Counted from the first letter of the stretch, positions 36,466 through 63,191 are shown. The stretch is 64,000 bases of DNA from an uncultured Candidatus Izemoplasmatales bacterium (GCA_964395055.1 CAYNAA010000004.1:1830-65829), one strand, 5' to 3'. Notes: generated by a model from the letters alone, not told the origin. Numbers and translations: made by a program.

Positions 36466-38442
36466 TCAAGCCTCCAATGGTGAGTGATTATAATCGAGCA
36501 TTGAGATATATTCTACTTGTTTTACGGAAGGAGCCCTAATATCAAGTAGCGCACGTAATGCTTTGTCTTGTTCAGAAATTAATGCAAAAGCTTCAGCAAA
36601 GCTATCTCCGCCATGGGGCCAATCAAACCACTCATTCACGTCTTTATTAACATAATATGGGGGTGAGTACCAATAGTGTGCAGCTTTATCTGTTGCCCAA
36701 CTGAAATGAGCATTTAGCTTATCCCGTCGTTTTTTCAATTGTAAAATTTTATTCCAAATCACTTTACGATCCAGTTCTTTAATTCGATTCCACAGCCGCA
36801 ATTTACCTACAAAAACATGGGGATCATAATAAGCATAAGTAGCAGTATAGTTATCTTTACCTGACCATATTGGTAAACGAGTTCCTTCCTGAATATCCGC
36901 AGGCAAAGGAGCCATCAAATTTAGATTATCATAGTTTACATTCTTCACAAAGATTGGAATTCCCCTATTATCATCAGGATCAAGCCATCCAAAAATAAAT
37001 AATTCTAAATTCTCTACATTAGCAGAAAAACGATAACAATTTTCGCCAATCCAGTACCCTCGAGCATTTCTCATTTCTGAAGCATCAAGATCTTCTTGCA
37101 AAGGTGGATCAATTTTTATCCAATTTGGATTTTGGGTGCGTGTTTCACTAATTTCAATAATTCGATAAATTGTACGATGTGATTCAAAAACAACAAAATC
37201 ACCTACTCTTGTGCCACGCAATCCTGAATGATATCGTTGACCTACAGGTAAAGAAACAGAAGGATTCCATAAATCAATCTTGGTACTACCTTTTGTAGGA
37301 GCATAATTATTGTAACCTTCAACTTGTTCATGGCCATCATAATTAGCTCTTATAGGAAGTTCTGTTGCCCCCATAAAACCACCATATAATGATCCAGGTT
37401 GTAAACTCCAACCAAAAGAGGGATAATGATCAGGTAGATAACGCCAATCTTCTGTTGTATTTACGCAAACACCATATCCTAGACAAGGAATAGGGTAAGG
37501 TTCCCCCAATGTAAGTGTTGCACTTAATCCTTGAGGCCATTCTCCACCTGCGATATCTGAATAACCTGTAACAGGAACATTAACTGATTCCCATGGACCT
37601 GTCAACCACATATGATTGGTAAACCCCCAAGGTTTATTTGGTTGGTCATTTATTGTAGGTATTCCGCTTCTTGATCCTGGTCTTCCTGAACTTCCATCAT
37701 CTGTATCAATCATGACTTTACCGTTGGCATTAATTTTTGTTTCCATTAAACTATCTGGGATTACTTTACATTTAATTGAAGTATCTCCTTTGCTTGCTGC
37801 TTCAGTAATAATAAAGCCAATGCGTTCGGGATGGGTAGCAGTGATACCTTGTTTTTCCTCAGCTCGTTGTATATGAATTCCAGGTGTACCTTCTTTAAGG
37901 GGCTGAATGCCAATTTTATGCACATCATAGCCGAAAGATTTATATCCTTCTTTCGTGGCTTCCTGAGCACAAAACATTCCTCTAGTATCATAGACTATAT
38001 CCCCAGAATTTATTTCATATAATTGTGGGCCTTGATCTATATCTTGACAAGTTTTCGTATTTAATTCTAAAAGTAAAGGATTCCATACAGCATAACATAA
38101 TTCAAATGCTGTTTGGTAGTAATCTCCTAACCCACCACCAATATCTTGTAAGAGAGTATTATCCCATTCTTCTGGTCCTTTGTAAATAAGATCAGCTACT
38201 GCTCTTAAAGCCTTTAGACTTAATTCAGAGATATCTGTGGCTTTAAATGTGATATTATTCCCACAATAAGGTAACCTAACCCAACGATCTGGATCTCCTT
38301 TTTGTCCTAACCAATACGGGTAGCTATGTCGAAGAAAAAAGTCTCCAACTTTTCTGACGTAAGCAATAGCAGGAGGAGCTACCTTAATTTCTTCAAGGTC
38401 AGCTTCCAAAAGAACTTCAAAAAATGGGATGTCAGTCTTCAT
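36466..38442 (-). CDS. tail structural protein (658 aa from ATG 38442)
   Basis: GGAG sits 8 nt before ATG 38442. The N-terminus (VAPPAIAYVRKVGDFFLR) is paralogous to that of ORF 38432-39913. The upstream 77 codons of the track ORF overlap the preceding gene. Confidence 0.45.
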   Translation of the reverse strand: MKTDIPFFEVLLEADLEEIKVAPPAIAYVRKVGDFFLRHSYPYWLGQKGDPDRWVRLPYCGNNITFKATDISELSLKALRAVADLIYKGPEEWDNTLLQDIGGGLGDYYQTAFELCYAVWNPLLLELNTKTCQDIDQGPQLYEINSGDIVYDTRGMFCAQEATKEGYKSFGYDVHKIGIQPLKEGTPGIHIQRAEEKQGITATHPERIGFIITEAASKGDTSIKCKVIPDSLMETKINANGKVMIDTDDGSSGRPGSRSGIPTINDQPNKPWGFTNHMWLTGPWESVNVPVTGYSDIAGGEWPQGLSATLTLGEPYPIPCLGYGVCVNTTEDWRYLPDHYPSFGWSLQPGSLYGGFMGATELPIRANYDGHEQVEGYNNYAPTKGSTKIDLWNPSVSLPVGQRYHSGLRGTRVGDFVVFESHRTIYRIIEISETRTQNPNWIKIDPPLQEDLDASEMRNARGYWIGENCYRFSANVENLELFIFGWLDPDDNRGIPIFVKNVNYDNLNLMAPLPADIQEGTRLPIWSGKDNYTATYAYYDPHVFVGKLRLWNRIKELDRKVIWNKILQLKKRRDKLNAHFSWATDKAAHYWYSPPYYVNKDVNEWFDWPHGGDSFAEAFALISEQDKALRALLDIRAPSVKQVEYISMLDYNHSPLEA

Positions 38443-41784: not shown

Positions 41785-44700
41785 TTATGCGGGTTGAATC
41801 CTTATGCCAAACAATTTGACATCATCCGTAAGATCATCACGAGTACATTTTAATCTAAAGATAAAGAATGGTCCATCTCCTTCTGGAGTAAAAGTATATT
41901 CTTTCTTCTCATAACCAAAAGTATTCCCATCAGATGTTGCTATCGCTGTTTCATCAGTTGGCCAATAAGTTTCAGCTTGAGAGGGAAAACCATCGGTAGG
42001 ATTTAATGCTTTTGCTCCGAAGTTCCAAAATAACCTTTCATCCTCAGATCCCCCATGCCAAAAGATTGTGAGTTTAAGTACGCCCCCTGCATATTCATCA
42101 GGTGGTGCAAAAGTCCACACATAGTATTCATCATCTGTTTCAGTAAGTTCTAAATGAGGGGCAACAAAATTCTTAAAAATATCAACTGGTCCATAGTTCA
42201 TTTCACCTAAGCGTCCTGCTTCTTGGGGAGCAAACCAATGTGACCATAATTTATTAACTGCTCCTACTCCGCCTTCAATAGTACCAGTAATCGTTGTTGT
42301 ACCATCTAAATTAACCCTATCATTGAAGTTAGTCTCATTTTCAACTTCAATTGGTCCACTTGCTGAATGTATAGGGGCACCAATTGTAATAATACTATCA
42401 GTTATCGATGTATTTCCAATTTCCAAATTCGGTAAAGAGAAAGACCCAACGGTAAGTGTTCCGTCAATATTTACATCTCCTGCAAAGATAGAAGTAACAC
42501 CTGTCCCTAATACTCGAATTTTTTCATCAGTTACAATTGTACCTTTTGCTTTTATCTCACCATTTTCATAAAGAGTTGCACCAGAATCCGCATATCCACT
42601 GCCGACTTGAATTTCATCGAAGGCAAATAATCCACCTGTATCATTGATGATAGAGCCACTTACAGTTAAATCACCTGCAATTTTGAGATCACCATTTGTA
42701 TAAATTGTAACTCCACCGTCATCGAAACCCTCAGTATTTCCTATGGGATTTATTTTAAGGTCGGTTTCACTTATAAAATCAAGATCACCAGTAAATGTTA
42801 AACTACCATAAAATTCACTAACTCCTTCCATCGTAAATTTAAGTTGATCAACACCATAATCAGATAACTTTAATTGATTATCATCACTGATCCGATAAGT
42901 TAATTCCCCTATATCTGGGTAATATCTAAGCCAATGGCCCTCTCCGCTGGTAATATATATATTATCTGGCTCTAATGTAATAGTATCACCAATAGTTAAA
43001 GTATTATTAACAGTCATGGTATCAACATTTTGATCTGCTGTACCACCTCCAATAATACTTCCATCGATCTCTAAATCTCCTGCGATTTTAATCTTTGTAT
43101 TTCCATCATCTGATATCGTTATACCGCTATTATTATATCCACCCAGAAAATGAACACTATTGGCAAAGTATACATGCCCAGCAAAATTACTATCTGTCCC
43201 CGAGTTAGTTTGATTTAATTTATCAAAAGTTATTTTTCCTACTCCACCTGTTTTTTCAATTATTACTAAACCATCGCCAATACTTAAATAATTAGCAATA
43301 TATACAGTCCAATTAAAGTCACTTCGATCATTGAATGTGGCTGTTCCATCTATTTCCAAATTCCCCGAAACATCTACTTCAAATTGGTTAGAATCTCCGA
43401 CTTGAAGAGTATCAAATACTCCTGTTGATCCACCTCCCCCTGAATTAATTGTCCCATCAACTGTTAAATCACCGCTAATTTGAATATTTCCATCCGCTGA
43501 AATTGATACCCCACCGCCAGTATAACCATAGTCACTTCCATCTTTACCAAGATCAATTCGAGCAGTATTAGATGGTAGAATAATATCTCCATTGTTGTAT
43601 CCTGTTATCCCTGCACTTGTGCCTACGATAACAGCACCGCCGCTAGGAGTATCCCCAGCAGAATCTGATCCAACATTTATTCTAGTAAGAGCACCAATTA
43701 AATCGTCAGTATGGATTCGTCCAGCAGATATAATTCGTCCGTCTTCATAAAGATCTGATCCACCATCGTCATAACCTCCACCAACAGTTAAGCTAGTGAA
43801 AGCATTACTGGGATTACTTGGATCAATTTCTGTGCCATTAAGAATTAATGATCCGTCTATAACTACGTCACCAGCATCTGTCATAGTAATATTACTACCA
43901 ATAGTTAATTGCGTATCTGTATGAATATTATTATTGGTTTGGAATAAGCCATTTGTTGATATCGTTGCACCGGCGCCGCCACCATATCCTCCACCAACAG
44001 CCAAACTTTCTACTGCACTTACATCTCCCCCATCCCAACCAATAATATCACCACCAATCTCAAGATCACCAGTTAATACTATTGTTCCGTCACTCTTAAT
44101 AATTACGCCAGTAGTTGTGTGGTCTCCTGCTTCAAGATTACCATCGGTTTGTACATTACCACCTGGAGTAACAGTTAAACCTGTATCACCATAACCTCCA
44201 TATAATAGGATATTAGTATTATTTGCTTCAAGATACTCCCCGCCAAGAATATTACCATCAGTGCTTAAATCTCCATTTCCATCTATTGTTAATCCTGTAT
44301 CACCATAACCCCCTCCAATAATAATACTATCAAACTCATTCCCGCCAGTTCCACTTCCACCATTAATAGTTCCATCGACAGTTAAATCACCTGCAATTTT
44401 TAGATCACCATTGGCTAAGATAGATACCCCTCCTTCATCATACCCATAGGAAGAATAATCTAGAATCCCGCCTATATGAATATCTTTCTTAAAGATACTA
44501 CGATCAGGTAAGAAAGTAAACCAATTACTTAAAGTATCATCAACAGTATAAAAACGAATTTCATGGACATCACTAGCTTCTGATCCTGGCGCATTATTAA
44601 AAGATATTTCTCCATTGATTCTTGACCCATCATATTTATGTGTAATTTCAGCATTATCATGTAAAAACCATATATGACAATTTCCACTTGCTCCTGTTTC

Positions 44701-47700
44701 ATGATCAATTCTTAAACCTTTATCCGTTACAAGATAACCATCAGTTTCTACACCATATGCACCTATCGTTGCTCCACCAATTCCACCATGATATCCCCAA
44801 GCTGCATGTATATCTGCACGTGCCCAAATTTCACCACCAACTTCTAATTTACTATTACTAGGAGTGTATTGCATCCCTTTGCCAGATACAGGGGAAGATT
44901 CTTCTTCATCATCATACCACTTATTTGTACCATAAAAATAGGTGTGATCTTTGAAAGAAGCAGTTCCTTCAATAATCAAATTACCATCTGCTTCAATGTC
45001 TCCAAGATGAGAAATTGTTACTCCTGTATCACCATAACCTCCGCCTACAGACAAACTATCAAAGGCACCTGTTTCTGCAATTGTTGTAGTGTGTGTGAAA
45101 GAAATCCAATTGGCCCCATCCCAGCCTTGCCAATCACCTTCTTGTAATAAAGTAACTTCGTCATCAACTTCTACATCTTGGAATAAGGCTGGGGAAATTT
45201 CTATTTCCCATAAACCTCCACCTAGATCACTAGAAGAAATTATTTGATATTTTGTAGGATCATCTTCAATTAATAATCTTGGTTCATCTACTTGTGTTTC
45301 AACGATTTCTACGGGGCCGTTCTTGATATAAATAGTTGTACTGTCAACAGGAAGAGAAGTATTAATTTGGGCTTTCACTGCACCCGTGTATCTCATTATC
45401 CCGCAAAAACGTTCATCAATATCATCGTTACCTATTCCAAGATATCCTCGTCCATAAAGAGTATTAATAATTAAATTATCTCTAATATTGAGACTACCAT
45501 TAACCAAAACATCTTGATTAAGGGAAATATGATGATGGTTAAATTCAGCTATATCAAAGCTACCCACAACTAATTGGTCAATAAATCCAATAGAAGGACA
45601 ATAAAACATATCATAAGCATTCAATACCCCATTAACTGAAATTGCTTCAGCACTGATAGCCTTATTAACAGTAATAGTATCTTGGCTAAAGTTAATGATT
45701 TTTTCTGGTTCAGCTTCAGGAGTCAAATAATAATTTAATTCTAATTCTTCTATATTGAGAGTTAATCCCCAAGCGGGAGCCGTTTCTTGACTAGAATCAC
45801 CTAGACGTAATTCCGTAGATAATTCGAGATATTGCCCACGAAGACCAGTATCTTCTATATAAGATAAATATTCCGTAGAATAAAAAGAATTTGTATCTGC
45901 GCTAAAGAATACCGCGGGCTGTTCATGAGAAGGATCAATTAAATTTCTTCCCATGGTAATATCCCACCATTGCTCAGTATCGTCAGATAAAGCTTGCTGA
46001 TAAGCTTTTAATCGATCAGACTCAAACTGAATTGCACCTAAATCATCTGCACCCCAAATTCCTGATAATTTTATTCCTGTTGAAGATGTTATATCATCTG
46101 CACTTAATGATCCACCTATTGAAGAATTATTAGCAACATTTAAATTATTGGATATATGTACCGTATTTGCACACCAAAGTTCAACATCAATCCATATACC
46201 ATCTCCATCAAGAGTTAAATGATCTGTTGCTACCCAATTATCCCCATCACTATATAAGAATTTTCCTGTGTGACTATCAGGATTTTGAAATGGTAAATGT
46301 CCAGTTAATGACACCCAACCAATATTCTCAATATATGCCTCATAATCATTTTGGTTATATCGTAGTTGACCCCCAGCAGCAATAGGTGGAGAAGACAGAT
46401 CTTCATAAGCCTTTAATTCAAAGACTTCATTGACAATGACTTTATCGTCTTGTAAATTTAGTACATTAGTAGGAAGCCATGCTTCAGAAGTAGCATCCCA
46501 ATGAGTTAATTGTCCATCTGTTGTACCTAAAGCAATATCTGTTTCTGTCTCGCCAATAATAATCCAATCAGTGCCATTTGGAGAGAATTTAAGATTAGTC
46601 CCATCGAAATAGAGTCGACCAACAGCAGCTCCAAATCCGGGACTAGTTTGTGCATTTAAATCAAGATATTGCTCCATTTCAATATTTTGTACAGAAAGTA
46701 ACTCAGTGTCAAAATCAAAAGTTAATAGATTTGTATTTCGATACTTACCACCCTCATAGTCAGGATCATAAATTACTGTTGATCCTTTTATTGGGGATTC
46801 TTCATTATTCCATATAGCTTGGCCATGGAAGCCTGCGGTAAATGATACCCATTGATAACCATCCCAACCTTCCCAGTCACCTCGGGATACGTTGCCAGGA
46901 GTTGAATAACGAATAGCACCAACAGGAATATATGGTCCGCCAGCTACATGACCTATACGAATATAACTACCGAATAATGCTTCTTCTGCACAGTATAAAC
47001 GGCTTGTATCTATTGAACCCGTGCCTAAAACTAGATCGCCCTCTTCAATAAAGACACTATCATTTAATACATCTACTCTACCAGCTATGATAACATCATT
47101 ATTTGCCTTTAATAAATCTCCAATTTCAACTTCACCATTTAATAAAGATTTACCCTGGTTAACTAATGGATGGGCAGGAATTGCTGATTCTGATCCAGTT
47201 TTAACACTTGATCCAGCGTCAACAGCTTCAGTTAATCCTGCATTAAGATGTAAAGTATCTGTTGGATCACCCTCAGCATTAGCTAAAATATACCAGTTAT
47301 CTGAAATTTTTACAGACATTCCTGCAGATAATTGTGAATCGAAATTCGTTACCTCTATTATAGTATCACCTGGATTATGGTCATTTACTGTCATCCCTGT
47401 TTCAGAAACTGTTCCTGGAAGTTCTGTACCTTCTCCAAATTCTGCTGTATCATACCCTAAACCTAAATGATAAGCAAATACCCCCCTCGTTTGCAGTAGC
47501 AATCCACCAGGTAATCCTTGTTCACTTTTGCTACGTATCTCAAAGCCATTAAAAATGAGATCATCGCCTTCATCTTGAGGCATTCGATAATGAATTTCAA
47601 AAATCTCTGATCTATCTGTTATCCCACCGGTACCCCGATCTTCTTCATCCGTTTTTATATGCCAGCCTTGACCTGTAGGTTTTTCATCATCATCATTTAC

Positions 47701-50700
47701 GCTGCCTAAAACTAGGTGTAACATTGTTGTTACTAAGCTATTACTAATATTTTCACCATATTCAGGATTAACTAATAACTCAGTAGTATTATACCACCAA
47801 TCTCCTTCTCGTTTTAGCATTTGACCAGTATATAATGGTAATTCTTCTCGAATAGGTGAAGTCAAGAAGGCCCATTCAGGACCATCTTCACGATCCACAC
47901 AAGCATAGAAATGATGATTTTCAGGATGATAGAATATTCTACCAGGGATTCTAGCAGGTCCATTTGCACCAATTAATGGGTCAACTTCAGCGTAACTTAA
48001 CCAAGGAGTAGCATCTCCAATAATAAGATCACCTGCACTTAGAGTCCGATCAACATCCAAATCTCCAGTAATAATAGTATCTTTATCAAGGGTAATTGAA
48101 TAATCTAAAAATGCTACATCGTGATATGTTTCCCAGTATGTCCCATTATAATATAAAATATCTCCCCGTTTTAACCAAGGATCACCTGATTCACGAGGTA
48201 ATACGCTTAAATGCCCTGTAAAGGATACCCAACCAATATCTTCTATAAATCCCTCAAAATCATTTTGGTTATATCGAATTTGCCCTGGTGTAGCAATAGG
48301 TCGAGGTAAAATTCCTTGTACTGTAATAATGGTATTGTCATTTACAGCTTCAACTAAACTTGGATCAATTTCAATAGCCGTGGTTATTGATCCATCATTT
48401 GTTACATCTATAATAGTATAAACTGTATCATCACCATAAAATTTGATTTCTTGATCTACGCTAAGAGTTTCTCCAAAACCATCTACAGCAATATTTGTAG
48501 CACCAATTTCATACCCACCAGTTTTATTAACTCTTCCCTGTGCATAAAAATCTTCATACTTTCCAATTTCAAGTAAGCGTAATTGTGTTTTTACACCATC
48601 ACTAATTAAAGAAGAATTGACGACCCAATCTGAGGCACCATTCCATCGTAATGTAGATCCCGAGATAGTACTAGATGGTAAGGATGGGCCGCTGTATGAT
48701 CCTGATAATTGAGTCCAAACACCAACATCTGTACAACCTTCAAATCGAGCAGTATCAGCATTGTATCGAATAGCTCCTAATACAGCTGCCGTAGAAGAAT
48801 TAGATGCGAGTTTGATGACACCAGTATTAGTTGTCTCAACGGAAGTATTCTTTAACCACTGCGATCCATCCCACCATAATATAGATCCATATGGATCAGA
48901 ATATTCACCATCTGCTAAAGATAAAGTAAAAGATCGCCAAACCGGACCACCTGGTGTATGGATACATCCCTGAAAATCCCCATTATATCGAATCATTCCA
49001 GGTGTATCCTCTATACCATCTAATTCCTCACCAATTTGGATAGTATGCTCAAAAGTGGCATTAGCTTCTACTAAAAGATCATTTTGAATATATTGATCTC
49101 CGTAAATACTTATCTTAACACGAGTGTCGTAAAAATCAATTGTTGTATTATCAGCAATAGCTTCAGTTAAACCATCTTTAATATAAATTTCGTCAGTTGG
49201 AACTCCATTTGCTTCAGTAATTTTATACCAATGATCTCCAATTTTTGCTTGACTTTCTGCTTCAATGATTTCTGTGCATCCAGTAATGGTAATAGCCGTA
49301 TCTACGCCATCCCCAATTTCATAATCTCCATCTACATTTGCCGAAATGATCGGGGTTTGATTAATTTCCTCTAATTGCCACCGTGTAAATTCTAAATTAG
49401 TTAAAATCGATAATCCAGCTACATCAGCTCTTAAATTAAAAAGCATCCCTTCATCTTGTAAATCAATTCTTGTCGTATTAAAAATACTACCCCCATCTCC
49501 ACCTTCACCTAGGAAATCAAAATTCGTCACAGTTAGAGTATTAATTATTGCTTCATGAATTTCAATATAGTTAGTTTCATTGGTACCAGTAATATACCCA
49601 TTTTCTCCTAAGTCGATTTTATTTGGATTTATTGTTCCAATACTAAATGAATCAGAGGCTGCATCTAAAATTATAGTTGTATCACCTGCAGTTAATTCTA
49701 ATGTTTGTGCAGCGATGGTGGTTGTATGAAGTTTGTTTGATGCGATCCAAAGAATATCACTCTCTTCCCATACAACACTACCTTCTCCATCATTTGTGGC
49801 CACCATGAAGTAACCAGGATTAGAAGGAGTAGGTACAGCAGCAGAAATAGGCCAACTATTCCATGATTCCCCATCATTCCATTGTAGTTCACTTAAAGTA
49901 TCATTCCATTTAATTGTTCCAGCTAATCCCGCACCCTCACCGATTTTGATTTCTGGAGTGTTCAGCTTTGAATCTTGAAAAGTTAGATCAGATCCAGCGG
50001 AAACCCAGACACCATCTGCATACATCAATGCGCCATCAACATCAGCACTAGGTAATCTTTGTTCCGGGATAGTATTGGTTAAAGAAACACGAATATATTC
50101 ATCACCATGTCGTAGAATTGCTTGAATATCATTATTTACATACTCAATTAAGCCACCTTGTAAAGGTGTAGAAGGATCTTTTTCCCCAATAACAATTGCA
50201 TTTTCAATTTTAACAACAGTAGGCTCAATAAGTAATTGTGTATTTGCTTGCCAATCTCCATCTTTATAATGAATACTTGCATATTGCGTACCTGCGTCTG
50301 CAAAAGTTACAGTATCCCCACCTAAAGTTTTCCATTCTCCTGCGATATATGCACGAAGTCCTAATGCTTCATCATAATATATTTGTCCATTATCTTCAGT
50401 AGGAACAGTTTCTGTAGGTACTAATCGTAATTGATTTGCTTCTATATTTCCTATGAAAGTGGTATCTTCAAAAAAGGTGTTTTCTAAGTGTGAGGTAAAA
50501 GTTGAATAGGAAATAGTAACCCCATTCATATTGAAACTGATATTACCACTTTCTAAGATGATTGCACTTGTTCCCGCTAATTCAATTACACCTAAATCTC
50601 GATCAAATCTATCATCCGCTGCAATTAATATATTCTCTTGAGATCTTAATTCTAAAGATCGACTCCATATATTTAAAGCTTGTTGGGTTGTTGGAATTTC

Positions 50701-52044
50701 TGAAATTTCAACAAAAGTAGTAGTTGCATCGATTTGTGCAGTAAGTTCCTGATCTAAAACGATAGACAAGATAGTTTCATTATCTGTATCATAGTTAATT
50801 GCTTCTATAGTATATTCTGTAGCATGATTATCAAATTTAATTGTAGTCTTTGTTAGATCAGAAACAGATACATTAATTGCAGTATCATGTCCAATACTAT
50901 ATGTATCTGAAACCGTTCCAGAATTTAAGAAGGGCACCGCCAACCCAACAATAAAACTAGTGGCACCTAAGCTTGTTTCAGCCTGAAGAATATTTAAATC
51001 CGGACTTAATGTGGTAATATCTCCCCCTAAATGTATTTGATTGAGATGTATTTGTCCCTCTAATCTTAGATCATTAGTCAAATAAACTTCTGACTCATTA
51101 AGTCGTAACTCATTATTACCAAAATTTAATAATAATTGGGTATTAGATAAATTAATATTACCCGTATAAGCTAAAGTCGTAGGATCAGTATAATATAAGA
51201 AATCTCCAGTAGAAGCACCAGCAGGTGGCGACCATTCTCCATTTTCACCTAATGCAAAATTATGCCATTCAGAGCCATCATAACCTAAAAATTGTCCTTC
51301 TTCAAATTTCACCATTCCTGCAGAATCAGAATCATCATTTTGAGGGCCAATAATTAATTGATTATCTAGCGTTAAAGTTTTAATATGTAAATGATCGGGA
51401 TGCTGAAAATCTTGCATTTCTTTTACAGCATCCTGTAATTCCTCTAAATTAATAAAGCCAAACAATAATAATGCTTTTTCGCTATCAGTATGAGCACGTT
51501 CAGCTGAGACTATTTCACCAGAAGAATTTTCCCAGTGTCTTCCGATAACTCGTCCCTCTGTATTATCATTGATATCCTCAAGTAAAGGCGGATCAATAGT
51601 TAAATCATTACCATCAATTTCAGTAATTCTATATAATTGTGGGTTATTTCCTAAACGAAAGTACTCAAAAGTTAAGAGCTCAGAAGCATCATCAACCGTT
51701 AATGTTGTTGCATTTGTTAAATGATTACCATCAACAACGATTTCTTTTATTTCAGTGTAGGTATAATAATTATCCCAATCTCGGACAACAGTAAATTGAT
51801 CATTATCTGATTCACTTTGAGCATAACATAAAACTCTTTCCGCATTTCTTAAATCAAATAACGTGTATCCTTCTGTTAATGTTAAAACAAATGGAAGAGT
51901 TGGTATCTCAGCATCTGCCATACCTTCTGCCAAAACGATTTCTGTCTGCCCAATTTCAAGTCGTCCAGTAGGAAATAGAACTGGATCAGAAAAATCTAAT
52001 GAGCTTTCTTTATAATTTCCTAAATTCAAGAACCCCATGATCAA
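41785..52044 (-). CDS. giant repeat-rich fibre-like virion protein (3419 aa)
   Basis: Single uninterrupted 10.26-kb ORF directly after the tape measure gene. Contains many internal repeats (GxIRYN...W..F and GGGYGDTG...DGN types) and a distinct C-terminal ~170 aa. Confidence 0.6.
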   Translation of the reverse strand: MIMGFLNLGNYKESSLDFSDPVLFPTGRLEIGQTEIVLAEGMADAEIPTLPFVLTLTEGYTLFDLRNAERVLCYAQSESDNDQFTVVRDWDNYYTYTEIKEIVVDGNHLTNATTLTVDDASELLTFEYFRLGNNPQLYRITEIDGNDLTIDPPLLEDINDNTEGRVIGRHWENSSGEIVSAERAHTDSEKALLLFGFINLEELQDAVKEMQDFQHPDHLHIKTLTLDNQLIIGPQNDDSDSAGMVKFEEGQFLGYDGSEWHNFALGENGEWSPPAGASTGDFLYYTDPTTLAYTGNINLSNTQLLLNFGNNELRLNESEVYLTNDLRLEGQIHLNQIHLGGDITTLSPDLNILQAETSLGATSFIVGLAVPFLNSGTVSDTYSIGHDTAINVSVSDLTKTTIKFDNHATEYTIEAINYDTDNETILSIVLDQELTAQIDATTTFVEISEIPTTQQALNIWSRSLELRSQENILIAADDRFDRDLGVIELAGTSAIILESGNISFNMNGVTISYSTFTSHLENTFFEDTTFIGNIEANQLRLVPTETVPTEDNGQIYYDEALGLRAYIAGEWKTLGGDTVTFADAGTQYASIHYKDGDWQANTQLLIEPTVVKIENAIVIGEKDPSTPLQGGLIEYVNNDIQAILRHGDEYIRVSLTNTIPEQRLPSADVDGALMYADGVWVSAGSDLTFQDSKLNTPEIKIGEGAGLAGTIKWNDTLSELQWNDGESWNSWPISAAVPTPSNPGYFMVATNDGEGSVVWEESDILWIASNKLHTTTIAAQTLELTAGDTTIILDAASDSFSIGTINPNKIDLGENGYITGTNETNYIEIHEAIINTLTVTNFDFLGEGGDGGSIFNTTRIDLQDEGMLFNLRADVAGLSILTNLEFTRWQLEEINQTPIISANVDGDYEIGDGVDTAITITGCTEIIEAESQAKIGDHWYKITEANGVPTDEIYIKDGLTEAIADNTTIDFYDTRVKISIYGDQYIQNDLLVEANATFEHTIQIGEELDGIEDTPGMIRYNGDFQGCIHTPGGPVWRSFTLSLADGEYSDPYGSILWWDGSQWLKNTSVETTNTGVIKLASNSSTAAVLGAIRYNADTARFEGCTDVGVWTQLSGSYSGPSLPSSTISGSTLRWNGASDWVVNSSLISDGVKTQLRLLEIGKYEDFYAQGRVNKTGGYEIGATNIAVDGFGETLSVDQEIKFYGDDTVYTIIDVTNDGSITTAIEIDPSLVEAVNDNTIITVQGILPRPIATPGQIRYNQNDFEGFIEDIGWVSFTGHLSVLPRESGDPWLKRGDILYYNGTYWETYHDVAFLDYSITLDKDTIITGDLDVDRTLSAGDLIIGDATPWLSYAEVDPLIGANGPARIPGRIFYHPENHHFYACVDREDGPEWAFLTSPIREELPLYTGQMLKREGDWWYNTTELLVNPEYGENISNSLVTTMLHLVLGSVNDDDEKPTGQGWHIKTDEEDRGTGGITDRSEIFEIHYRMPQDEGDDLIFNGFEIRSKSEQGLPGGLLLQTRGVFAYHLGLGYDTAEFGEGTELPGTVSETGMTVNDHNPGDTIIEVTNFDSQLSAGMSVKISDNWYILANAEGDPTDTLHLNAGLTEAVDAGSSVKTGSESAIPAHPLVNQGKSLLNGEVEIGDLLKANNDVIIAGRVDVLNDSVFIEEGDLVLGTGSIDTSRLYCAEEALFGSYIRIGHVAGGPYIPVGAIRYSTPGNVSRGDWEGWDGYQWVSFTAGFHGQAIWNNEESPIKGSTVIYDPDYEGGKYRNTNLLTFDFDTELLSVQNIEMEQYLDLNAQTSPGFGAAVGRLYFDGTNLKFSPNGTDWIIIGETETDIALGTTDGQLTHWDATSEAWLPTNVLNLQDDKVIVNEVFELKAYEDLSSPPIAAGGQLRYNQNDYEAYIENIGWVSLTGHLPFQNPDSHTGKFLYSDGDNWVATDHLTLDGDGIWIDVELWCANTVHISNNLNVANNSSIGGSLSADDITSSTGIKLSGIWGADDLGAIQFESDRLKAYQQALSDDTEQWWDITMGRNLIDPSHEQPAVFFSADTNSFYSTEYLSYIEDTGLRGQYLELSTELRLGDSSQETAPAWGLTLNIEELELNYYLTPEAEPEKIINFSQDTITVNKAISAEAISVNGVLNAYDMFYCPSIGFIDQLVVGSFDIAEFNHHHISLNQDVLVNGSLNIRDNLIINTLYGRGYLGIGNDDIDERFCGIMRYTGAVKAQINTSLPVDSTTIYIKNGPVEIVETQVDEPRLLIEDDPTKYQIISSSDLGGGLWEIEISPALFQDVEVDDEVTLLQEGDWQGWDGANWISFTHTTTIAETGAFDSLSVGGGYGDTGVTISHLGDIEADGNLIIEGTASFKDHTYFYGTNKWYDDEEESSPVSGKGMQYTPSNSKLEVGGEIWARADIHAAWGYHGGIGGATIGAYGVETDGYLVTDKGLRIDHETGASGNCHIWFLHDNAEITHKYDGSRINGEISFNNAPGSEASDVHEIRFYTVDDTLSNWFTFLPDRSIFKKDIHIGGILDYSSYGYDEGGVSILANGDLKIAGDLTVDGTINGGSGTGGNEFDSIIIGGGYGDTGLTIDGNGDLSTDGNILGGEYLEANNTNILLYGGYGDTGLTVTPGGNVQTDGNLEAGDHTTTGVIIKSDGTIVLTGDLEIGGDIIGWDGGDVSAVESLAVGGGYGGGAGATISTNGLFQTNNNIHTDTQLTIGSNITMTDAGDVVIDGSLILNGTEIDPSNPSNAFTSLTVGGGYDDGGSDLYEDGRIISAGRIHTDDLIGALTRINVGSDSAGDTPSGGAVIVGTSAGITGYNNGDIILPSNTARIDLGKDGSDYGYTGGGVSISADGNIQISGDLTVDGTINSGGGGSTGVFDTLQVGDSNQFEVDVSGNLEIDGTATFNDRSDFNWTVYIANYLSIGDGLVIIEKTGGVGKITFDKLNQTNSGTDSNFAGHVYFANSVHFLGGYNNSGITISDDGNTKIKIAGDLEIDGSIIGGGTADQNVDTMTVNNTLTIGDTITLEPDNIYITSGEGHWLRYYPDIGELTYRISDDNQLKLSDYGVDQLKFTMEGVSEFYGSLTFTGDLDFISETDLKINPIGNTEGFDDGGVTIYTNGDLKIAGDLTVSGSIINDTGGLFAFDEIQVGSGYADSGATLYENGEIKAKGTIVTDEKIRVLGTGVTSIFAGDVNIDGTLTVGSFSLPNLEIGNTSITDSIITIGAPIHSASGPIEVENETNFNDRVNLDGTTTITGTIEGGVGAVNKLWSHWFAPQEAGRLGEMNYGPVDIFKNFVAPHLELTETDDEYYVWTFAPPDEYAGGVLKLTIFWHGGSEDERLFWNFGAKALNPTDGFPSQAETYWPTDETAIATSDGNTFGYEKKEYTFTPEGDGPFFIFRLKCTRDDLTDDVKLFGIRIQPA
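47930..47941. repeat. TAGAATATTCTA palindrome, exact copy (in the giant CDS)
   Basis: 12/12. Read as R-I-F-Y. The only exact copy in the virion block. Confidence 0.9.
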
Positions 52045-58000: not shown

Positions 58001-58031
58001 CAAGCCCTATTCTTGAAGTATGATCAGCCAA
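52041..58031 (-). CDS. tail tape measure protein (1996 aa)
   Basis: Very long, mostly coiled-coil, with hydrophobic/Gly-rich segments. Contains the TDTVPAWLTPGEFIVNKEAAQRHGGLLQRIN motif common in tape measure proteins. Follows the chaperone pair. Confidence 0.85.
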   Translation of the reverse strand: MADHTSRIGLDAQSYISSVNQMTNALVRLARQSEQTDAEQKALIDHFTQSEKIFSQTGGLQKHIAQLQSARNELSRLRKEVGQYNRITEQSKSKTLGLTDPGKIAKLREEYAKTGQTLLEYVRAEEKAAKAHEQLTNKSAATRIYERERRAIEGQIKTSKELRAELTRLRKEREATYTSKAPSAGIQQTQEAIKNEEKLIRNRERQLDKLDQKLQDVTGRYEQVSRQKTKEIDPETGEKVDDKGALARQQTTLAGIEKEILTLREQRNQINQEITQAGTRAKGLIEKYETQINKATGTAAGNAVIAQVKDAFDTANKEVQTRSETLKRDLKRRLIGAAQRTGTAPKQIMLELGETDPKKLSVAREKYGDVAQIYARLQREIEQERTRIAQQEAEKRGQNIARREAAGIKSIRPEKTDLAGKESIIEANQALNHFEDEFKRFARENTHLSEEVLQGLVNDTEKLSEEAPRVYKALLQAQKQELNLANQVTEALKRQRIERQQQAAQQKISGFKSGIQIPKTEYDQQQWMQDLRRSNQRYQTDFELQKNRLAATVGKEAGTADVSSTEILEQFKNKDANIRARAAEKYKKSWKEYNRLLDMERREHERINKEISRKKQLIGRINKEQKQEVEEARQKRVAGELQQSGQLDQFLKEEQRARGIHLSGGMKIDAVVQSQELAKAFAKTGRPASEFRETIKKIKEGNTNVIRQFPELAQKLNRTSQSMSKFSHSGKELMLSIENFKRLVFARALTHIFYGITTELEKAFTTSVELYRSLAEIQTISQQNQKTLEEWGDAVHQISQAYNLAQEDISEAIYQITSNQVAAGQAAVDFAEIVAPFAKATKSDLTDAVNLLTSAVNSFNINVANAELIAAQLFKTVELGRVRVEDMANQFGRVGALASQAGLSLAETNSALATLTISGVKFQRASTFLINVLNKLAKPTPGLERLFKEWGVSSGRAAIQVYGLTGVLDKLYESNRGQLGELAEDLRDIRAIIGGATLTQNKEQIAEDTAKMENALESYLEAQRLIFEGPGEKFTSEMNKIRNFFIEIGKEMVDLFAWLDDKLDKGVKIGGFEVITPGSDLSEAAVQAAPTAATLVAAGITSAAGAGVKGLLGGIPIKGVPLADHKTLMTGLRKGKLVALLTLFVTLTKTLWDFQEKQKAIKGDIEEIFGADFETNLKNMSKAVETNYNEQVKQTKDYGSKITQFYEKQTETLKQELRDQSNLWEEHLDQLNKRLQLTADTSKIVSQYIEESLDRRKELSLKYAGSTLDESQVRLQYVRHLIDQLPKAYAQSAKIGDEHLNRVLSFGQETIGKFDEIIFEIEKAFRLRQDRGKIDEARNIIKGLGIDPKQWSDQIYHRLLAERQLIGSTLDNIVRGLAQERGISPGQMDFDALFKVQKQTDYWEKYIDRFEKLSEFLQKQFKEGVTTWKDMRNAILIGLPTSQQKLFKEVFGSGYGERILTQQLNAANALEVVEGAALDDAAASDQQTQAIYAQTDLLRLLSTDPRAPGEIAQLADANQAFQRFIQELPQGLATTEKGLITERSSIIQEIKTIIDEAGGVLSPEEDLEVRRQIAKLQKSWVESADSLTHLTKEGSENAYAFVERVNNLLTNVDWRNVTGPATDPGQEIKFHYERLKELGAINSGTNEIVDILKNIDKGIDLERREEAVKTAYMSLGGHPGSPRGTDTVPAWLTPGEFIVNKEAAQRHGGLLQRINTGYYAKGGQVSDPREREKWEKEWAAYIKYFGLEGQKITPIIDFQQFDELKNSLVENYRKQRHPKIVHDGKTIYPSGDPEDKIKKYEEEYQRFINNLKAEVQYHELQQPVHGKDIGLSAYKQTPGYQPVLSLIEEKDRAALESRHRYFKGVDKAQTGAMWGTGIAGATGIAGATIAYLLGTGGTGVAPLLASIAGSGSNIMPSLIGASVLAEPVDWLYHTLFGQRGGFVPPRHQANGGPVTNNYNFNTTASLRSSGSESIDARRLITAINREQHRGTARIRN

Positions 58032-59573: not shown

Positions 59574-60257
59574 TTAGATTTCTTCTCGTGGATCATCCGG
59601 CCAAAAAGCTGCATCATTAAGATCAAGAGGCTCAGCATCCACAGCTTTAACATAACCAAAGCTGCCACCTGAACCGCCACTTGCATCAATACGTTTTGGA
59701 ATTGGTCGAAGGACATGACACTTACCACTTACGTCAATTGTACCTCCATTAATATCCACATTGATGCTATCAGTACGGAAATAACGGAAAAGCGTTGCTT
59801 CACCATGTGCAGAAGTGTTAGGACAATCCATAGCCGGATTATTATGTAATTCTAATTCGGCCGCATATGGGGGGCAACCATAAGTAGCTAACCAATTTTC
59901 AACAGCGCCAACGAAAATTGGATTTGCATCTGGGTCACCAAAATCATGTCCATCAAGAATTTCATGGACAGTATAATTTTCGTCACCGTTTGTCTTTGTG
60001 AAGGTAAATTTACCCTGGAAAGAAACTTCTAAAGGCGCTTCATCGCCTTTACGAACATCATCAAGAACACCTCGATCAAGCATATATTCTTGATTCTTGG
60101 TCATGTTCCAGGTGAAATTACCTTCACCAAACTTGAGTCCCAAATAGGTATCACAACGATCACCCGGAGCATATACTCCTGAAGCTTTTGTCTTCAGAAA
60201 GAGTACATGATTTTTTAGGGTAGTTTGTGTACCTTTTTGCTGTGAATTTGCCATCAC
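59574..60257 (-). CDS. major tail (tube) protein
   Basis: 227 aa, immediately upstream of the G/GT chaperone pair, which is the canonical siphovirus order. Confidence 0.55.
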   Translation of the reverse strand: MMANSQQKGTQTTLKNHVLFLKTKASGVYAPGDRCDTYLGLKFGEGNFTWNMTKNQEYMLDRGVLDDVRKGDEAPLEVSFQGKFTFTKTNGDENYTVHEILDGHDFGDPDANPIFVGAVENWLATYGCPPYAAELELHNNPAMDCPNTSAHGEATLFRYFRTDSINVDINGGTIDVSGKCHVLRPIPKRIDASGGSGGSFGYVKAVDAEPLDLNDAAFWPDDPREEI

Positions 60258-61105: not shown

Positions 61106-61367
61106 TTTTATGTTTCTCCCATAAGCAAGGACGTAAGCTTAATGCTTCCAATGCTTCTGTGTTATGTCTTAAAGCATCTACAACTTGTGTTATATTGTTC
61201 ATTAGGTGTGTCCTAATAAATACTTCATACTCTGAAAGTTTTGCTGATAATTGTTCTTCTCTCTTGAAATCACGATATATAAAGAATATTATAACTAAAG
61301 CCAATGGGCCGGCTTCAGTAATTATTTTTTCCCAAAAAGCCGGTTCCATCTTTACCTCCTTACCCAA
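61098..61367 (-). CDS. single-pass membrane/coiled-coil protein inside the head module
   Basis: AGPLALVIIFFIY forms a hydrophobic helix, followed by a helical charged region. Confidence 0.45.
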   Translation of the reverse strand: MGKEVKMEPAFWEKIITEAGPLALVIIFFIYRDFKREEQLSAKLSEYEVFIRTHLMNNITQVVDALRHNTEALEALSLRPCLWEKHKND

Positions 61368-61797
61368 TACGGAATGCTTCGATCAAAATATCTTCATCTA
61401 ATGCATCGCCATCCCAATTAAAATAAATCTTGGAATCAGCGAATTCATAATTCATAGAAAAGGGGCCAAGGATTACTGTTTCACCAGCAGCGATATCAAT
61501 AGTAGGTTCTACCACTTCAATTTCGACCCCATCTTCCTTGATAACAGCAGACATTTCTGGTGTTACCGTGATACTATCAGTATCATCGGTATTCATGATC
61601 GCAATAACAAGTTTATTACGAATATTGACTAAGAAATTACCGTTTGTCTTGTCAATATTCTGTGGGTTATCATCAAGAAGATGAATGCCACTTGTAGAAT
61701 TCATCTTCTTATGTTCAGAACCCTCAGGTCCAGTTTTTGCGATTTCAACTTCATCGCCCGTAGGTTCATAACCACCAATCTGTGGATACCATTTCAT
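61360..61797 (-). CDS. virion protein with N-terminal YPQIG tag (possible capsid decoration)
   Basis: MKWYPQIGGYEPTG... Immediately downstream of the capsid gene. Confidence 0.4.
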   Translation of the reverse strand: MKWYPQIGGYEPTGDEVEIAKTGPEGSEHKKMNSTSGIHLLDDNPQNIDKTNGNFLVNIRNKLVIAIMNTDDTDSITVTPEMSAVIKEDGVEIEVVEPTIDIAAGETVILGPFSMNYEFADSKIYFNWDGDALDEDILIEAFRIG

Positions 61798-61808: not shown

Positions 61809-63191
61809 TTATGAGATGAAGATGCCGCCATAGCGACGATCAAGGGTTTTTACTGCACAAAGGGTGTCAAGAGTTACGATATCTCGCATCTTCATCATAT
61901 CATAACCAAAGGTAACACGCAGTGCAATTCCATTCATAACCGCAATGCCTGAACGAACACTTTCACTTGGCGGCGCTAAGGGGCGATTCACAAAGGTAAT
62001 TGCATCTTGGATGAATGCGGGATTGTAATTGCCACGCGGGAAAAGGGCGACAGTGGCTCCATGTGCAACAGCATTATCCAAGGGACGATTCAGGAGCATA
62101 CGATTATTACTTGTATCAACTGCCATAATCGTATACACAACATCGGAATTACCAAAAGATACACCCTGGCCAATCTTCGGGTGCGGATCAATACCATCAT
62201 ATTGAATCTCATCACCATACTGGAAAGCATACGTGCCGCCAGAAGGATGATTAATTGTTCCGGTATCCCAAACTTCAACTGCATCATCATCAGCCACAGC
62301 CTTGTGAAGTCCGGGACTAATTGTGATTTCAGTACATGGATCACCAGATGCTCCGGTAATGCGATAAGGAATACCATTAATCAGGCACCACGAACCATTA
62401 GTAAGTGCCCCACCAAAAGTATCAACAGTTAAAGTGGTAGAGCCAGTGGCATAACCATCACCATTATTAATTGCACCACTCGATGTACTTTGTCCAGCAG
62501 AAATCTCTGCTACCTGGCTGCCTTCATTAACATTGAAACTCCGAAGACGCCCAAGTAAGCCATTTTGAATGGCTCCAACCGCTGCCGCATTATTGAGTTT
62601 ATCAGCTTCAACAAACCGATCAACATCTAGCAACAGTTTATCGGTAGCAGGACCAACAATGAGCTGTCGCCCATTATTAGGAATATTGCGACGCTGGAAA
62701 TGTTCGCGCAGATCAAGCATTGCTGCATCGGCATTCCCTGAAGTCAATCCTACTGATCCTGCAACCTGGCTATGGAATTGATAAGTCTCACCAAGGAGAA
62801 CTTGATCGATACCTCCAGAAAGTGCATCTGCTGCTTTCACTATGAATTTTTCACGGAGATTTGAAAAAGTAGAACGCTTATCCGCATCATCCAAATAGAA
62901 TGAAACGTGTAAATGTTGGTTCAGCCGAATCGTATCTCCGCTTGTCGTGGCATCTTGCAATACGATGTCTTCATCTTTGAATTTGCGTTTCGTTGCAAAA
63001 CTGCCAGTACGGTTTAAATTAACAACATCACCTGCATTGGCGAAATATTGCTCATAATCCCGGTTTACCATCGGAAGCACTACGAGCTTTGCTGTCATTT
63101 CTCGTAAAGTTTCCATGGCCCACCATTCAGGGATCAAAGCAGCAAAGTCATTTGCACCAATCTGGGGGTATGTTTTTTGATTAACGTTCAT
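61809..63191 (-). CDS. major capsid protein with an internal two-module insertion
   Basis: 460 aa, directly after the scaffold-like coiled-coil gene. N-terminal MNVNQKTYPQIG. Residues ~230-375 carry two copies of the module also found in the giant fibre. Confidence 0.65.
   Translation of the reverse strand: MNVNQKTYPQIGANDFAALIPEWWAMETLREMTAKLVVLPMVNRDYEQYFANAGDVVNLNRTGSFATKRKFKDEDIVLQDATTSGDTIRLNQHLHVSFYLDDADKRSTFSNLREKFIVKAADALSGGIDQVLLGETYQFHSQVAGSVGLTSGNADAAMLDLREHFQRRNIPNNGRQLIVGPATDKLLLDVDRFVEADKLNNAAAVGAIQNGLLGRLRSFNVNEGSQVAEISAGQSTSSGAINNGDGYATGSTTLTVDTFGGALTNGSWCLINGIPYRITGASGDPCTEITISPGLHKAVADDDAVEVWDTGTINHPSGGTYAFQYGDEIQYDGIDPHPKIGQGVSFGNSDVVYTIMAVDTSNNRMLLNRPLDNAVAHGATVALFPRGNYNPAFIQDAITFVNRPLAPPSESVRSGIAVMNGIALRVTFGYDMMKMRDIVTLDTLCAVKTLDRRYGGIFIS

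What the first reader, a model, noticed from the sequence alone, without database searches (positions are those of the whole stretch)
61809..63191. The capsid protein carries the same ~55-65-aa module as the giant fibre and other tail proteins
The capsid sequence is GDGYATGSTTLTVDTFGGALTNGSWCLINGIPYRITGASGDPCTEITISPGLHKAVADDDAVEVW, followed by a second half-copy (...SDVVYTIMAVDTSNNRMLLNRPLDNAVAHGATVALF).

This parallels several segments of the giant protein:
- GGYEIGATNIAVDGFGETLSVDQEIKFYGDDTVYTIIDVTNDGSITTAIEIDPSLVEAVNDNTIITV
- ...DHWYKITEANGVPTDEIYIKDGLTEAIADNTTIDF
- ...DNWYILANAEGDPTDTLHLNAGLTEAVDAGSSV
- ...NPQLYRITEIDGNDLTIDPPLLEDINDNTEG

It also parallels ORF 36466-38442 (HRTIYRIIEISETRTQNPNWIKIDPPLQEDLDASE).

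The common pattern is [GA]-[ST]-T-x-[IL]-x-V-D ... Y-x-I ... [IL]-x-[IL]-x-P-x-L-x-x-x-[IV]-x-D. A surface-exposed insertion in the capsid that is also iterated along the fibre suggests a shared binding function, such as glycan or cell-surface adhesion, on both head and tail.
Basis: seen in the sequence. Interest (0 to 1): 0.6.

Follow-up and report, generated by a model that had tools for sequence, protein, structure and literature searches.

The report
Capsid insertion domain shared with tail proteins
The coat protein of this uncultured long-tailed phage carries, at the site where phage P22's coat protein has its accessory insertion domain (I-domain), two copies of a small ~70-residue beta-barrel module. 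The same module is plugged into the phage's giant tail protein and into tail-tube proteins of relatives, so the repeat is real, but its role on the capsid is more likely structural than a proven adhesin.

Summary
**Observation: confirmed.** A profile built only from four modules of the 3419-aa tail protein finds the capsid at 41.8 bits (E 4e-16 in the window). The best of 1,341 decoys scores 11 bits.

**Anatomy.**
- The capsid gene encodes a P22-type HK97-fold coat protein.
- Residues ~236-392 are an insertion at the position of the P22 I-domain.
- The insertion is a tandem of two full modules, not one and a half (hhalign E 3e-10).
- AlphaFold models it as two small beta-barrels (pLDDT 93).

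**Copies and relatives.**
- The phage contig holds nine copies: capsid 2, giant protein 6, ORF 36466 one partial. The rest of the 1.76-Mb assembly has none.
- The family has 270 representative proteins in 1.84 billion and no Pfam model of its own.
- It also occurs in tail-tube, distal-tail and fibre proteins.
- It is weakly linked to T5 pb9 domain B (E 0.003), the CUS-3 I-domain (E 0.03) and the phage Mystique tail tube (E 0.06).

**Interpretation.**
- Both barrels are present in all 63 aligned capsid homologues and evolve as slowly as the core.
- Tail copies come and go between relatives.
- I therefore read the capsid copies as a built-in structural I-domain, and the module as a promiscuous virion-surface plug-in.
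- Shared glycan adhesion is possible but untested.
- Verdict: a new variant of a known kind, of moderate interest.

The parts
61809..63191 (-). Major capsid (coat) protein gene, 460 aa, P22-type HK97 fold
   Evidence: Pfam PF11651 P22_CoatProtein at 48.3 bits (cut-off 24) and phrog_283 at E 9e-43. AF2 model has pLDDT 87.7. Best Foldseek matches are the Sf6, CUS-3 and P22 coat proteins, E 1e-14 to 1e-12. A scaffolding gene (phrog_206) lies directly upstream.
62016..62486 (-). Insertion (I-)domain of the coat protein, aa ~236-392: two tandem beta-barrels
   Evidence: The Pfam P22 coat profile aligns positions 13-231 to aa 25-239. Capsid fragments align their C-termini to profile positions 339-423. 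hhalign places A1 columns 377-452 on P22 residues 335-409. The Che8 gp6 core (273 aa) aligns to aa 17-223 only. The isolated domain models at pLDDT 92.9 with two strand clusters.
62268..62474 (-). Capsid module copy A
   Evidence: 41.8 bits with a giant-protein-only HMM. 93.8 bits with profile A5, but A5 includes this copy, so that score is by construction.
62046..62231 (-). Capsid module copy B (a full, diverged copy; GQG and NRPLD motifs are nearly invariant in the capsid family)
   Evidence: hhalign of copy A against copy B: Prob 96.7, E 3.2e-10. 23.6 bits with the broad HMM. 29.9 bits, E 1.2e-6. Conservation line.
41785..52044 (-). Giant 3419-aa tail protein gene, directly after the tape measure gene, with six module copies
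   Evidence: Translation. The tape measure protein is identified by PF10145 in ORF 52041-58031. Module hits.
51547..51741 (-). Giant-protein module 1 (aa ~99-174)
   Evidence: 57.5 bits. Groups with the first modules of other giant proteins in the tree. Absent as a clean indel in relative P0082.
50713..50904 (-). Giant-protein module 1b (aa ~381-444), weak
   Evidence: 21.2 bits, E 5.7e-4, but only 5.4 bits with the other broad profile.
49129..49341 (-). Giant-protein module 2 (aa ~899-979)
   Evidence: 71.2 bits.
48316..48534 (-). Giant-protein module 3 (aa ~1167-1244)
   Evidence: 90.5 bits. Weak phrog_1302 (distal tail protein) hit at aa 1180-1246.
47200..47391 (-). Giant-protein module 4 (aa ~1548-1622)
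   Evidence: 56.8 bits.
45151..45348 (-). Giant-protein module 5 (aa ~2232-2301)
   Evidence: 26.8 bits, E 1.1e-5. 15.4 bits. This copy was not in any seed alignment.
37081..37209 (-). Partial or diverged module in tail ORF 36466-38673
   Evidence: 27.5 bits, E 6e-6, covering profile positions 25-65 only. 15.6 bits. With the giant-only HMM it scores 9.1 bits for the stretch and 11.4 bits for the whole ORF, within decoy range.
59574..60257 (-). Probable major tail (tube) protein. It has no module here, but homologues in related phages carry 2-3 modules after the first strand.
   Evidence: BLASTP to P0076 gives E 4e-20 and to P0098 E 8e-20. In relative L003 the homologue lies three genes after the capsid gene and two genes before the tape measure gene. 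The tube assignment rests on gene order only; there are no Pfam or PHROG hits.

Best explanation
Residues ~236-392 of the coat protein are its I-domain. This is an accessory domain inserted into the A-domain of a P22-type HK97-fold coat protein, at the same topological site as the I-domain of P22, Sf6 and CUS-3.

Here the I-domain is a tandem duplication of a ~70-residue all-beta barrel module. The module belongs to a widespread, so far unnamed family of phage 'plug-in' domains. Its weak but consistent relatives are T5 Dit pb9 domain B, the CUS-3 I-domain and the insertion in the phage Mystique tail-tube protein. The family has been inserted as a self-folding unit into exposed loops of many virion proteins: coat, tail tube, distal tail protein and fibres.

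In this phage the copies in the coat and in the giant tail protein are old and position-specific. They are not recent intragenomic copies of one another.

On the capsid the two barrels most likely act as a built-in decoration, stabilising the coat subunit and the lattice as the P22 I-domain does. The highly conserved second barrel probably packs on the HK97 core and the first barrel faces outward. In tail proteins the module is an optional surface decoration or spacer, and it may add weak carbohydrate adhesion.

Shown: homology, the insertion site, the tandem structure, the distribution, and the fixed-versus-variable contrast. Inferred: the barrel orientation and all functions.
For: Homology:
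- Leave-capsid-out HMM gives 41.8 bits, E 3.8e-16, against a decoy maximum of 11 bits.
- A search of 1.84 billion representative proteins with the 5-copy profile returns 270 proteins at E<=1e-3. They include ~460-aa capsids hit at aa ~240-310, 2-6-kaa giant proteins with many stretches, and small proteins.

Coat identity and insertion site.

Tandem duplication.

Fold:
- AF2 of the isolated insertion gives pLDDT 92.9, two strand clusters.
- Foldseek neighbours are the phage P560 depolymerase, the Mystique tail tube, riboflavin synthase, EF-Tu/aIF2-gamma and the F1 ATPase. I read the last four as small six-stranded barrels from my own knowledge of those structures.
- In BFVD the neighbours are tail fibres, sheath proteins, J-like proteins and major tail proteins.

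Sequence link to solved structures (profile A5 against PDB): T5 pb9 residues 116-156 at E 0.003, CUS-3 I-domain 6mnt at E 0.03, Mystique tail tube 9n71 at E 0.06.

Link to annotated families:
- PF21430 (pb9 B domain) is hit by 5 of 63 family members, best E 1e-6.
- phrog_1302 (distal tail protein) is hit by 10 of 63, best E 2e-23.

Capsid copies are fixed: all 63 aligned capsid homologues (down to 29% identity) keep both barrels, and the barrels are as conserved as the core.

Tail copies are variable:
- Tube homologues carry 0, 2 or 3 copies.
- Giant protein P0082 lacks module 1.
- Relative L006 shows modules only in the capsid within 21 kb.

The tree groups modules by host protein and by position: 25 label changes against a shuffled mean of 74.

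Precedent: a beta-barrel inserted in a phage K1 lyase tailspike is structurally similar to the P22 I-domain (PMC8822698).
Against: - No experiment or solved structure exists for this family.
- The links to pb9, the CUS-3 I-domain and Mystique are marginal (E 0.003-0.06).
- hhalign against single pb9 and P22 sequences is not significant. P22's own I-domain gives no sequence match.
- Neither 4jmq nor a P22 I-domain entry appears in the top 50 Foldseek matches of the isolated insertion.
- I had no coordinates, so the barrel topology (OB, RIFT or P22-type), the contacts with the core and the surface exposure could not be checked.
- Equal conservation of insertion and core is also compatible with a conserved ligand-binding role.
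- Cultured relatives such as Dinoroseobacter phage R5C have only one barrel, so the second barrel is not universally required.
Confidence: 0.6

Rival explanations
1. One reading: the module is a glycan or cell-surface adhesion domain. Displayed on the head, along the fibre and, in relatives, along the tube, it gives the whole virion weak multivalent binding to host polysaccharide, as proposed for Ig-like and OB decoration domains.
For: - The nearest solved relative is the T5 pb9 OB domain. OB and Ig-like decorations are proposed to bind cell-surface carbohydrates and raise infectivity (PMC10038345).
- The module decorates tube proteins in 2-3 copies, a pattern I recall for the Ig-like domains of lambda gpV and T5 pb6.
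- It co-occurs with GH16, CBM96 and tail-fibre families.
- An N-x-x-G-G-Y motif precedes the first strand in many copies. This could be a shared surface feature.
Against: - No binding has been shown for any member, pb9 included.
- The remaining conserved positions are core, Gly or Pro residues.
- Capsid copies are fixed and evolve like the core rather than like a host-range determinant.
- P22-type I-domains have documented structural roles.
- Co-occurrence with carbohydrate-active domains is expected for any tail-fibre domain.
Confidence: 0.25
2. The module is a purely architectural spacer or folding nucleus: a robust self-folding barrel that is tolerated in loops. It has no function common to head and tail beyond adding mass, length or stability.
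For: - Clean gain and loss as a unit.
- Irregular spacing along the giant protein.
- High predicted foldability of the isolated domain.
- Fold-only conservation pattern.
Against: Long-term retention at orthologous positions in giant proteins and in all aligned capsid homologues argues for selection on each copy, not mere tolerance.
Confidence: 0.12
3. The resemblance is convergent or compositional: alternating beta-strand patterns without common ancestry.
For: The copies are only 27-33% identical, and the two capsid copies are 17% identical to each other.
Against: Leave-one-out profile E 3.8e-16 and the decoy controls. Library-wide profile hits down to 1e-18 in unrelated capsids. Profile-profile E 3e-10.
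Confidence: 0.02

Closest known systems
I-domain of P22-like coat proteins (P22 gp5, Sf6, CUS-3; NMR structures 2M5S and 6MNT)
   Same: - An accessory all-beta domain inserted in the A-domain of a PF11651-type HK97 coat protein, at the same place in the chain.
- The full-length model is closest to the Sf6, CUS-3 and P22 coat proteins.
- The module profile touches the CUS-3 I-domain at E 0.03.
   Different: - Here there are two tandem ~70-aa barrels (~157 aa) instead of one ~120-aa barrel with D- and S-loops.
- There is no detectable sequence match to the P22 I-domain itself.
- This module has clear sequence homologues in tail proteins of the same phage, which is not reported for P22 as far as I know.
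Domain B (OB domain) of the T5 distal tail protein pb9 (PDB 4JMQ, 7QG9; Pfam PF21430)
   Same: - Best PDB sequence match of the module profile: E 0.003 at residues 116-156.
- PF21430 and phrog_1302 are hit by several family members.
- It is likewise a small barrel inserted into a tail-tube-fold domain and exposed on the virion.
   Different: - The window's own copies do not reach PF21430 at all.
- Only about 40 residues align.
- pb9 was not among the top 50 structural matches, so a shared OB topology is unconfirmed.
Ig-like decoration domains of tailed phages (T4 Hoc, lambda gpV C-terminus, T5 pb6/pb10, phi29 capsid BIG2). The concept of promiscuous domains on head and tail comes from Fraser et al. 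2006, cited from memory.
   Same: One small beta domain is scattered over coat, tube and fibre proteins. Its copy number varies between relatives and it is exposed on the virion surface.
   Different: The fold is different (barrel, not Ig sandwich) and there are no Ig, FN3 or BIG Pfam hits. On the capsid it is an internal insertion fixed in the family, not a dispensable terminal add-on.
Inserted barrel domains of tailspikes and tube proteins: K1 lyase 'rider' domain, P560 depolymerase (7VUL), Mystique tail tube (9N71)
   Same: 7VUL and 9N71 are the top Foldseek PDB matches of the capsid insertion (E 1.6e-3 and 1.1e-2). 9N71 is also hit by sequence profile (E 0.06). The K1 lyase rider domain is reported as structurally similar to the P22 I-domain (PMC8822698).
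   Different: All matches are marginal. Those domains are single insertions in enzymes or tubes, and no family relationship has been described.

Membership tests
P22-type coat protein (Pfam PF11651) with I-domain | Sequence match to PF11651 above the gathering score | tested here: met
   48.3 bits against a cut-off of 24. phrog_283 major head protein at E 9e-43.
P22-type coat protein (Pfam PF11651) with I-domain | HK97 core fold | tested here: met
   AF2 pLDDT 87.7. Foldseek to Sf6, CUS-3, P22 and other HK97 capsids at E 1e-14 to 1e-6.
P22-type coat protein (Pfam PF11651) with I-domain | Accessory domain inserted in the A-domain at the P22 223-345 position | tested here: met
   Profile positions ~232-338 are replaced by aa ~240-392. 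The insertion-free Che8 gp6 core aligns to aa 17-223 only.
P22-type coat protein (Pfam PF11651) with I-domain | I-domain is a six-stranded beta-barrel homologous to the P22 and CUS-3 I-domains, with D-loop and S-loop | tested here: inconclusive
   The model is all-beta with two strand clusters. CUS-3 I-domain scores E 0.03. P22 gives no match. The loops could not be examined because no coordinates were available.
T5 pb9 domain B (PF21430, OB domain) | Match to PF21430 at or above its gathering score (27 bits) | tested here: not met
   The window copies give no hit. The one relative whose bit score was shown reaches 25 bits, below the cut-off. Five of 63 relatives hit at E<=1e-3, best E 1e-6.
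T5 pb9 domain B (PF21430, OB domain) | Detectable homology to the solved pb9 domain B | tested here: inconclusive
   Profile A5 against PDB: E 0.003, 21 bits over 41 residues. hhalign against the single sequence: E 0.02-0.05.
T5 pb9 domain B (PF21430, OB domain) | OB-fold topology | not testable with these tools
4jmq is not in the top 50 Foldseek matches.
RIFT-type barrels (riboflavin synthase, F1 N-terminal domain, translation-factor domain 2) | Structural match to family members | tested here: inconclusive
   Foldseek E 0.017-0.12 with probabilities 0.2-0.99, but the long alignments have high rmsd. The family name is from my own knowledge.
Ig-like phage decoration domains | Ig, FN3 or BIG fold or family match | tested here: not met
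   No such Pfam hits. The structural neighbours are barrels, not Ig sandwiches.

The most novel reading that the evidence does not exclude
The module defines a large unnamed superfamily that unites P22-type capsid I-domains, the T5 Dit OB domain and the barrel decorations of tail tubes, sheaths and fibres. It would be a non-Ig counterpart to the promiscuous Ig-like domains. In phages like this one it would give head, tube and fibre a common weak glycan-binding surface, so that the whole virion acts as an adhesive particle.
Probability: 0.2. Interest if true: 0.6.

Novelty: new variant of a known kind. Interest (0 to 1): 0.4.

Why it matters
- It gives an evolutionary source for a capsid I-domain. 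The accessory domain of a P22-type coat protein is here visibly the same mobile unit that decorates tail proteins. This suggests that I-domains were recruited from a common pool of virion plug-in domains.
- It defines a domain family with no Pfam model of its own (270 representative proteins). A model for it would improve annotation of uncultured phage structural genes.
- The contrast between fixed capsid copies and facultative tail copies offers a clean test of the structural versus adhesive roles of phage decoration domains.

Tried and rejected
- The 5-copy profile against PDB sequences gave nothing. Only the 60-sequence profile reached pb9, CUS-3 and Mystique.
- Pfam scans of the five window modules gave no relevant family. 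PHROG scans gave only weak phrog_1302 hits.
- phmmer of relative P0083 against PDB gave nothing.
- hhalign of the capsid-family profile against P22 gp5 aligned only the C-terminal core. The insertion profile and the giant-protein N-terminus against pb9 aligned only ~35-40 residues at E 0.02-0.05. The idea that the giant protein's first 230 aa are a complete pb9-like Dit is therefore not supported by my data.
- PHROG and Pfam scans of nine neighbouring virion ORFs gave no hits apart from the scaffold and the tape measure protein. The tube assignment of ORF 59574-60257 therefore rests on gene order and on homologues.
- ORF 38432-39982 was considered as a further carrier and rejected (5.6 bits).
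- A weak Phage_cement_2 hit in the capsid (E 0.055) was not pursued.
- Two papers, Rizzo 2014 and Flayhan 2014, were not held. What I say about them is from citing papers or from memory.
- The module tree is poorly resolved (79 columns; 8 of 121 branches well supported). It is used only for clustering of labels.

Full report
**1. What is at the coordinates**

ORF 61809-63191 (minus strand) encodes a 460-aa protein.
- It matches Pfam P22_CoatProtein at 48.3 bits (cut-off 24) and phrog_283 'major head protein' at E 9e-43.
- A scaffolding gene (phrog_206) lies directly upstream.
- Sixty-seven homologues were found, nearly all 446-484 aa. An alignment of 64 sequences (the query plus 63 of them) gave an AlphaFold2 model with mean pLDDT 87.7.
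- The best PDB matches of that model are the coat proteins of Sf6, CUS-3 and P22 (E 1e-14 to 1e-12), followed by many other HK97-fold capsids.

**2. Is the repeat real**

Yes.
- The capsid segment alone, used as a phmmer query, finds the 3419-aa protein at E 3.5e-4 among 341 window ORFs, through several separate stretches.
- The fairer test uses an HMM built only from four giant-protein copies, with no capsid sequence. It finds the capsid with E 3.8e-16: copy A 41.8 bits, copy B 8.6 bits.
- The best of 1,341 reversed or shuffled decoys scores 11.1 bits.
- With a profile of 197 family members, copy B rises to 23.6 bits, a further giant copy to 15.4 bits and the ORF-36466 copy to 15.6 bits. The decoy maximum for that profile is 9.1 bits.
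- A search of the whole 1.76-Mb assembly with a 60-sequence profile gives nine matches, all on this phage contig: capsid 2, giant protein 6, ORF 36466 one.

Y-x-I-T ... T-x-I-T-I-x-P-G-L-x-x-A-V-x-D.

Three corrections:
- The unit is about 70 aa.
- The 'half-copy' is a whole second copy. hhalign of the copy-A and copy-B sub-alignments of the capsid family gives Prob 96.7, E 3.2e-10 over 64 columns.
- ORF 38432-39982 is not a significant carrier.

**3. Insertion or core**

It is an insertion.
- The Pfam P22 coat profile aligns positions 13-231 to aa 25-239.
- Capsid fragments from the library align their last ~80 residues to profile positions 339-423.
- hhalign puts family columns 377-452 on P22 residues 335-409.
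- The 273-aa Che8 gp6 capsid protein aligns to aa 17-223 only. From its length I infer that it has no such domain. Its remaining 66 residues match the 66 residues after the insertion in number.

So aa ~236-392 replace exactly the part of P22 gp5 that forms its I-domain. Modelled on its own with 33 homologous fragments, the insertion reaches pLDDT 92.9. It shows two strand clusters, at aa 236-313 and 325-385 of the capsid.

**4. What the module is**

*No family of its own.* No Pfam family covers it.

*Distribution.* A profile of the five clearest window copies, run against 1.84 billion representative proteins, returns 270 proteins at E<=1e-3. They fall into four groups:
- capsids of ~460 aa, hit at aa ~240-310;
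- giant proteins of 1.9-5.9 kaa, with up to 15 stretches resolved locally at E below 0.01;
- 300-400-aa proteins with two or three N-terminal copies;
- assorted proteins of 600-1250 aa.

*Families of 63 non-giant members.* They include P22_CoatProtein (capsid fragments), Phage_tube_2, GH16, CBM96, phrog_1302 'distal tail protein' (10 members, best E 2e-23), tail-fibre PHROGs, and PF21430 'Distal tail protein pb9, B domain' (5 members, best E 1e-6).

*Links to solved structures.* A 60-sequence profile against PDB sequences hits T5 pb9 residues 116-156 (E 0.003), the CUS-3 I-domain 6mnt (E 0.03), the phage Mystique tail tube 9n71 (E 0.06) and the CUS-3 coat protein (E 0.39).

*Structural neighbours.*
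- In the PDB, the capsid insertion is nearest to phage P560 depolymerase (E 1.6e-3), the Mystique tail tube (E 1.1e-2), riboflavin synthase and lumazine protein, EF-Tu/aIF2-gamma/SelB, and the F1/V1 ATPases. These are small six-stranded barrels of the kind I know as RIFT barrels.
- In BFVD the neighbours are tail fibres, sheath proteins, T7-fibre-N-terminal proteins, J-like proteins and major tail proteins.

All these links are marginal one by one, but they point the same way: a small beta-barrel that phages insert into exposed loops of virion proteins. The literature gives precedents on both sides:
- The pb9 OB domain 'decorates' the Dit tube domain and is proposed, like Ig-like domains, to touch cell-surface carbohydrates (PMC10038345).
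- A barrel inserted in the K1 lyase tailspike was found structurally similar to the P22 I-domain (PMC8822698).

**5. Head, tube and fibre in relatives**

- The 300-400-aa proteins P0076, P0083 and P0098 are homologues of window ORF 59574-60257 (BLASTP E 4e-20 and 8e-20).
- That ORF lies between the head-tail genes and the chaperone and tape-measure genes (PF10145 in ORF 52041-58031). It is therefore the probable major tail protein.
- The window protein has no module. The relatives have two or three, inserted after the first strand.
- In relative contig L003 the capsid has the tandem and the tube homologue has three copies.
- In L005 the layout matches the window: capsid tandem plus a giant protein after the tape measure gene.
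- In L006 only the capsid carries modules within 21 kb.
- The giant-protein relative P0082 lacks module 1 as a clean deletion.
- The cultured Dinoroseobacter siphophage R5C has one clear module (66 bits) in its annotated P22-like coat protein and none in the tail genes examined.

**6. History**

A quick maximum-likelihood tree of 124 modules is poorly resolved, but the labels cluster strongly: 25 changes against a shuffled mean of 74.
- Capsid copy B forms a supported clade (SH-aLRT 96).
- Capsid copy A modules and the tube modules each group largely together.
- The window's giant-protein modules pair with modules at the same position in other giant proteins.

So the capsid and fibre copies of this phage are old residents of their host proteins, not recent copies of each other.

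**7. How it most likely works**

Capsid copies:
- All 63 aligned capsid homologues, down to 29% identity, keep both barrels.
- Mean pairwise identity is 0.37 for copy A and 0.40 for copy B, against 0.38 for the N-terminal core.
- Copy B carries nearly invariant GQG and NRPLD motifs.

Tail copies vary in number between close relatives.

I read this as two regimes. On the capsid the tandem is an integral I-domain that helps the subunit fold and the lattice hold, as shown for P22. Barrel B probably docks on the core and barrel A is probably outermost. In tail proteins the module is an optional decoration or spacer. Nothing here tests it, and the positions conserved across the family are mostly fold-determining.

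**8. Verdict**

- The 'shared adhesion function' part is open.
- The thing is a new variant of a known kind: a P22-type I-domain built from a tandem of a promiscuous, unnamed virion plug-in module. Interest is moderate.

Noticed in passing
window 59574-60257 (-); relatives P0076, P0083, P0085, P0098; L003:10001-11182: The probable major tail protein has no module here. Homologues in related phages carry 2-3 tandem modules inserted after the first beta-strand, a clean presence/absence polymorphism.
   Followed up: partly
It scores 21 bits with one profile and only 5 bits with another.
   Followed up: partly
giant-protein relative P0082, N-terminus (alignment): This homologue of the giant protein lacks exactly the first module, while the flanking sequence aligns. 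The module behaves as a discrete insertable and deletable unit.
   Followed up: no
window 62262-62477, capsid aa C269 and C287: Two cysteines in capsid module A (SWCLI and GDPCTE) are shared by several of the closest homologues but not by the wider family. They might form a disulfide within the barrel.
   Followed up: no
window 61360-61797 (-): The 145-aa ORF directly downstream of the capsid gene has no Pfam or PHROG match. By position it could be a decoration or head-completion protein.
   Followed up: no
L004:19998-21227 (Dinoroseobacter phage vB_DshS-R5C coat protein): A cultured phage's annotated P22-like coat protein carries a single clear copy of the module (66 bits) at aa ~240-314. This makes it a tractable model for testing the domain.
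   Followed up: partly
whole assembly G000 (window = contig C4:1830-65829): The phage contig is binned in a 1.76-Mb, 122-contig assembly (84% complete). All nine module matches lie on this one contig.
   Followed up: no
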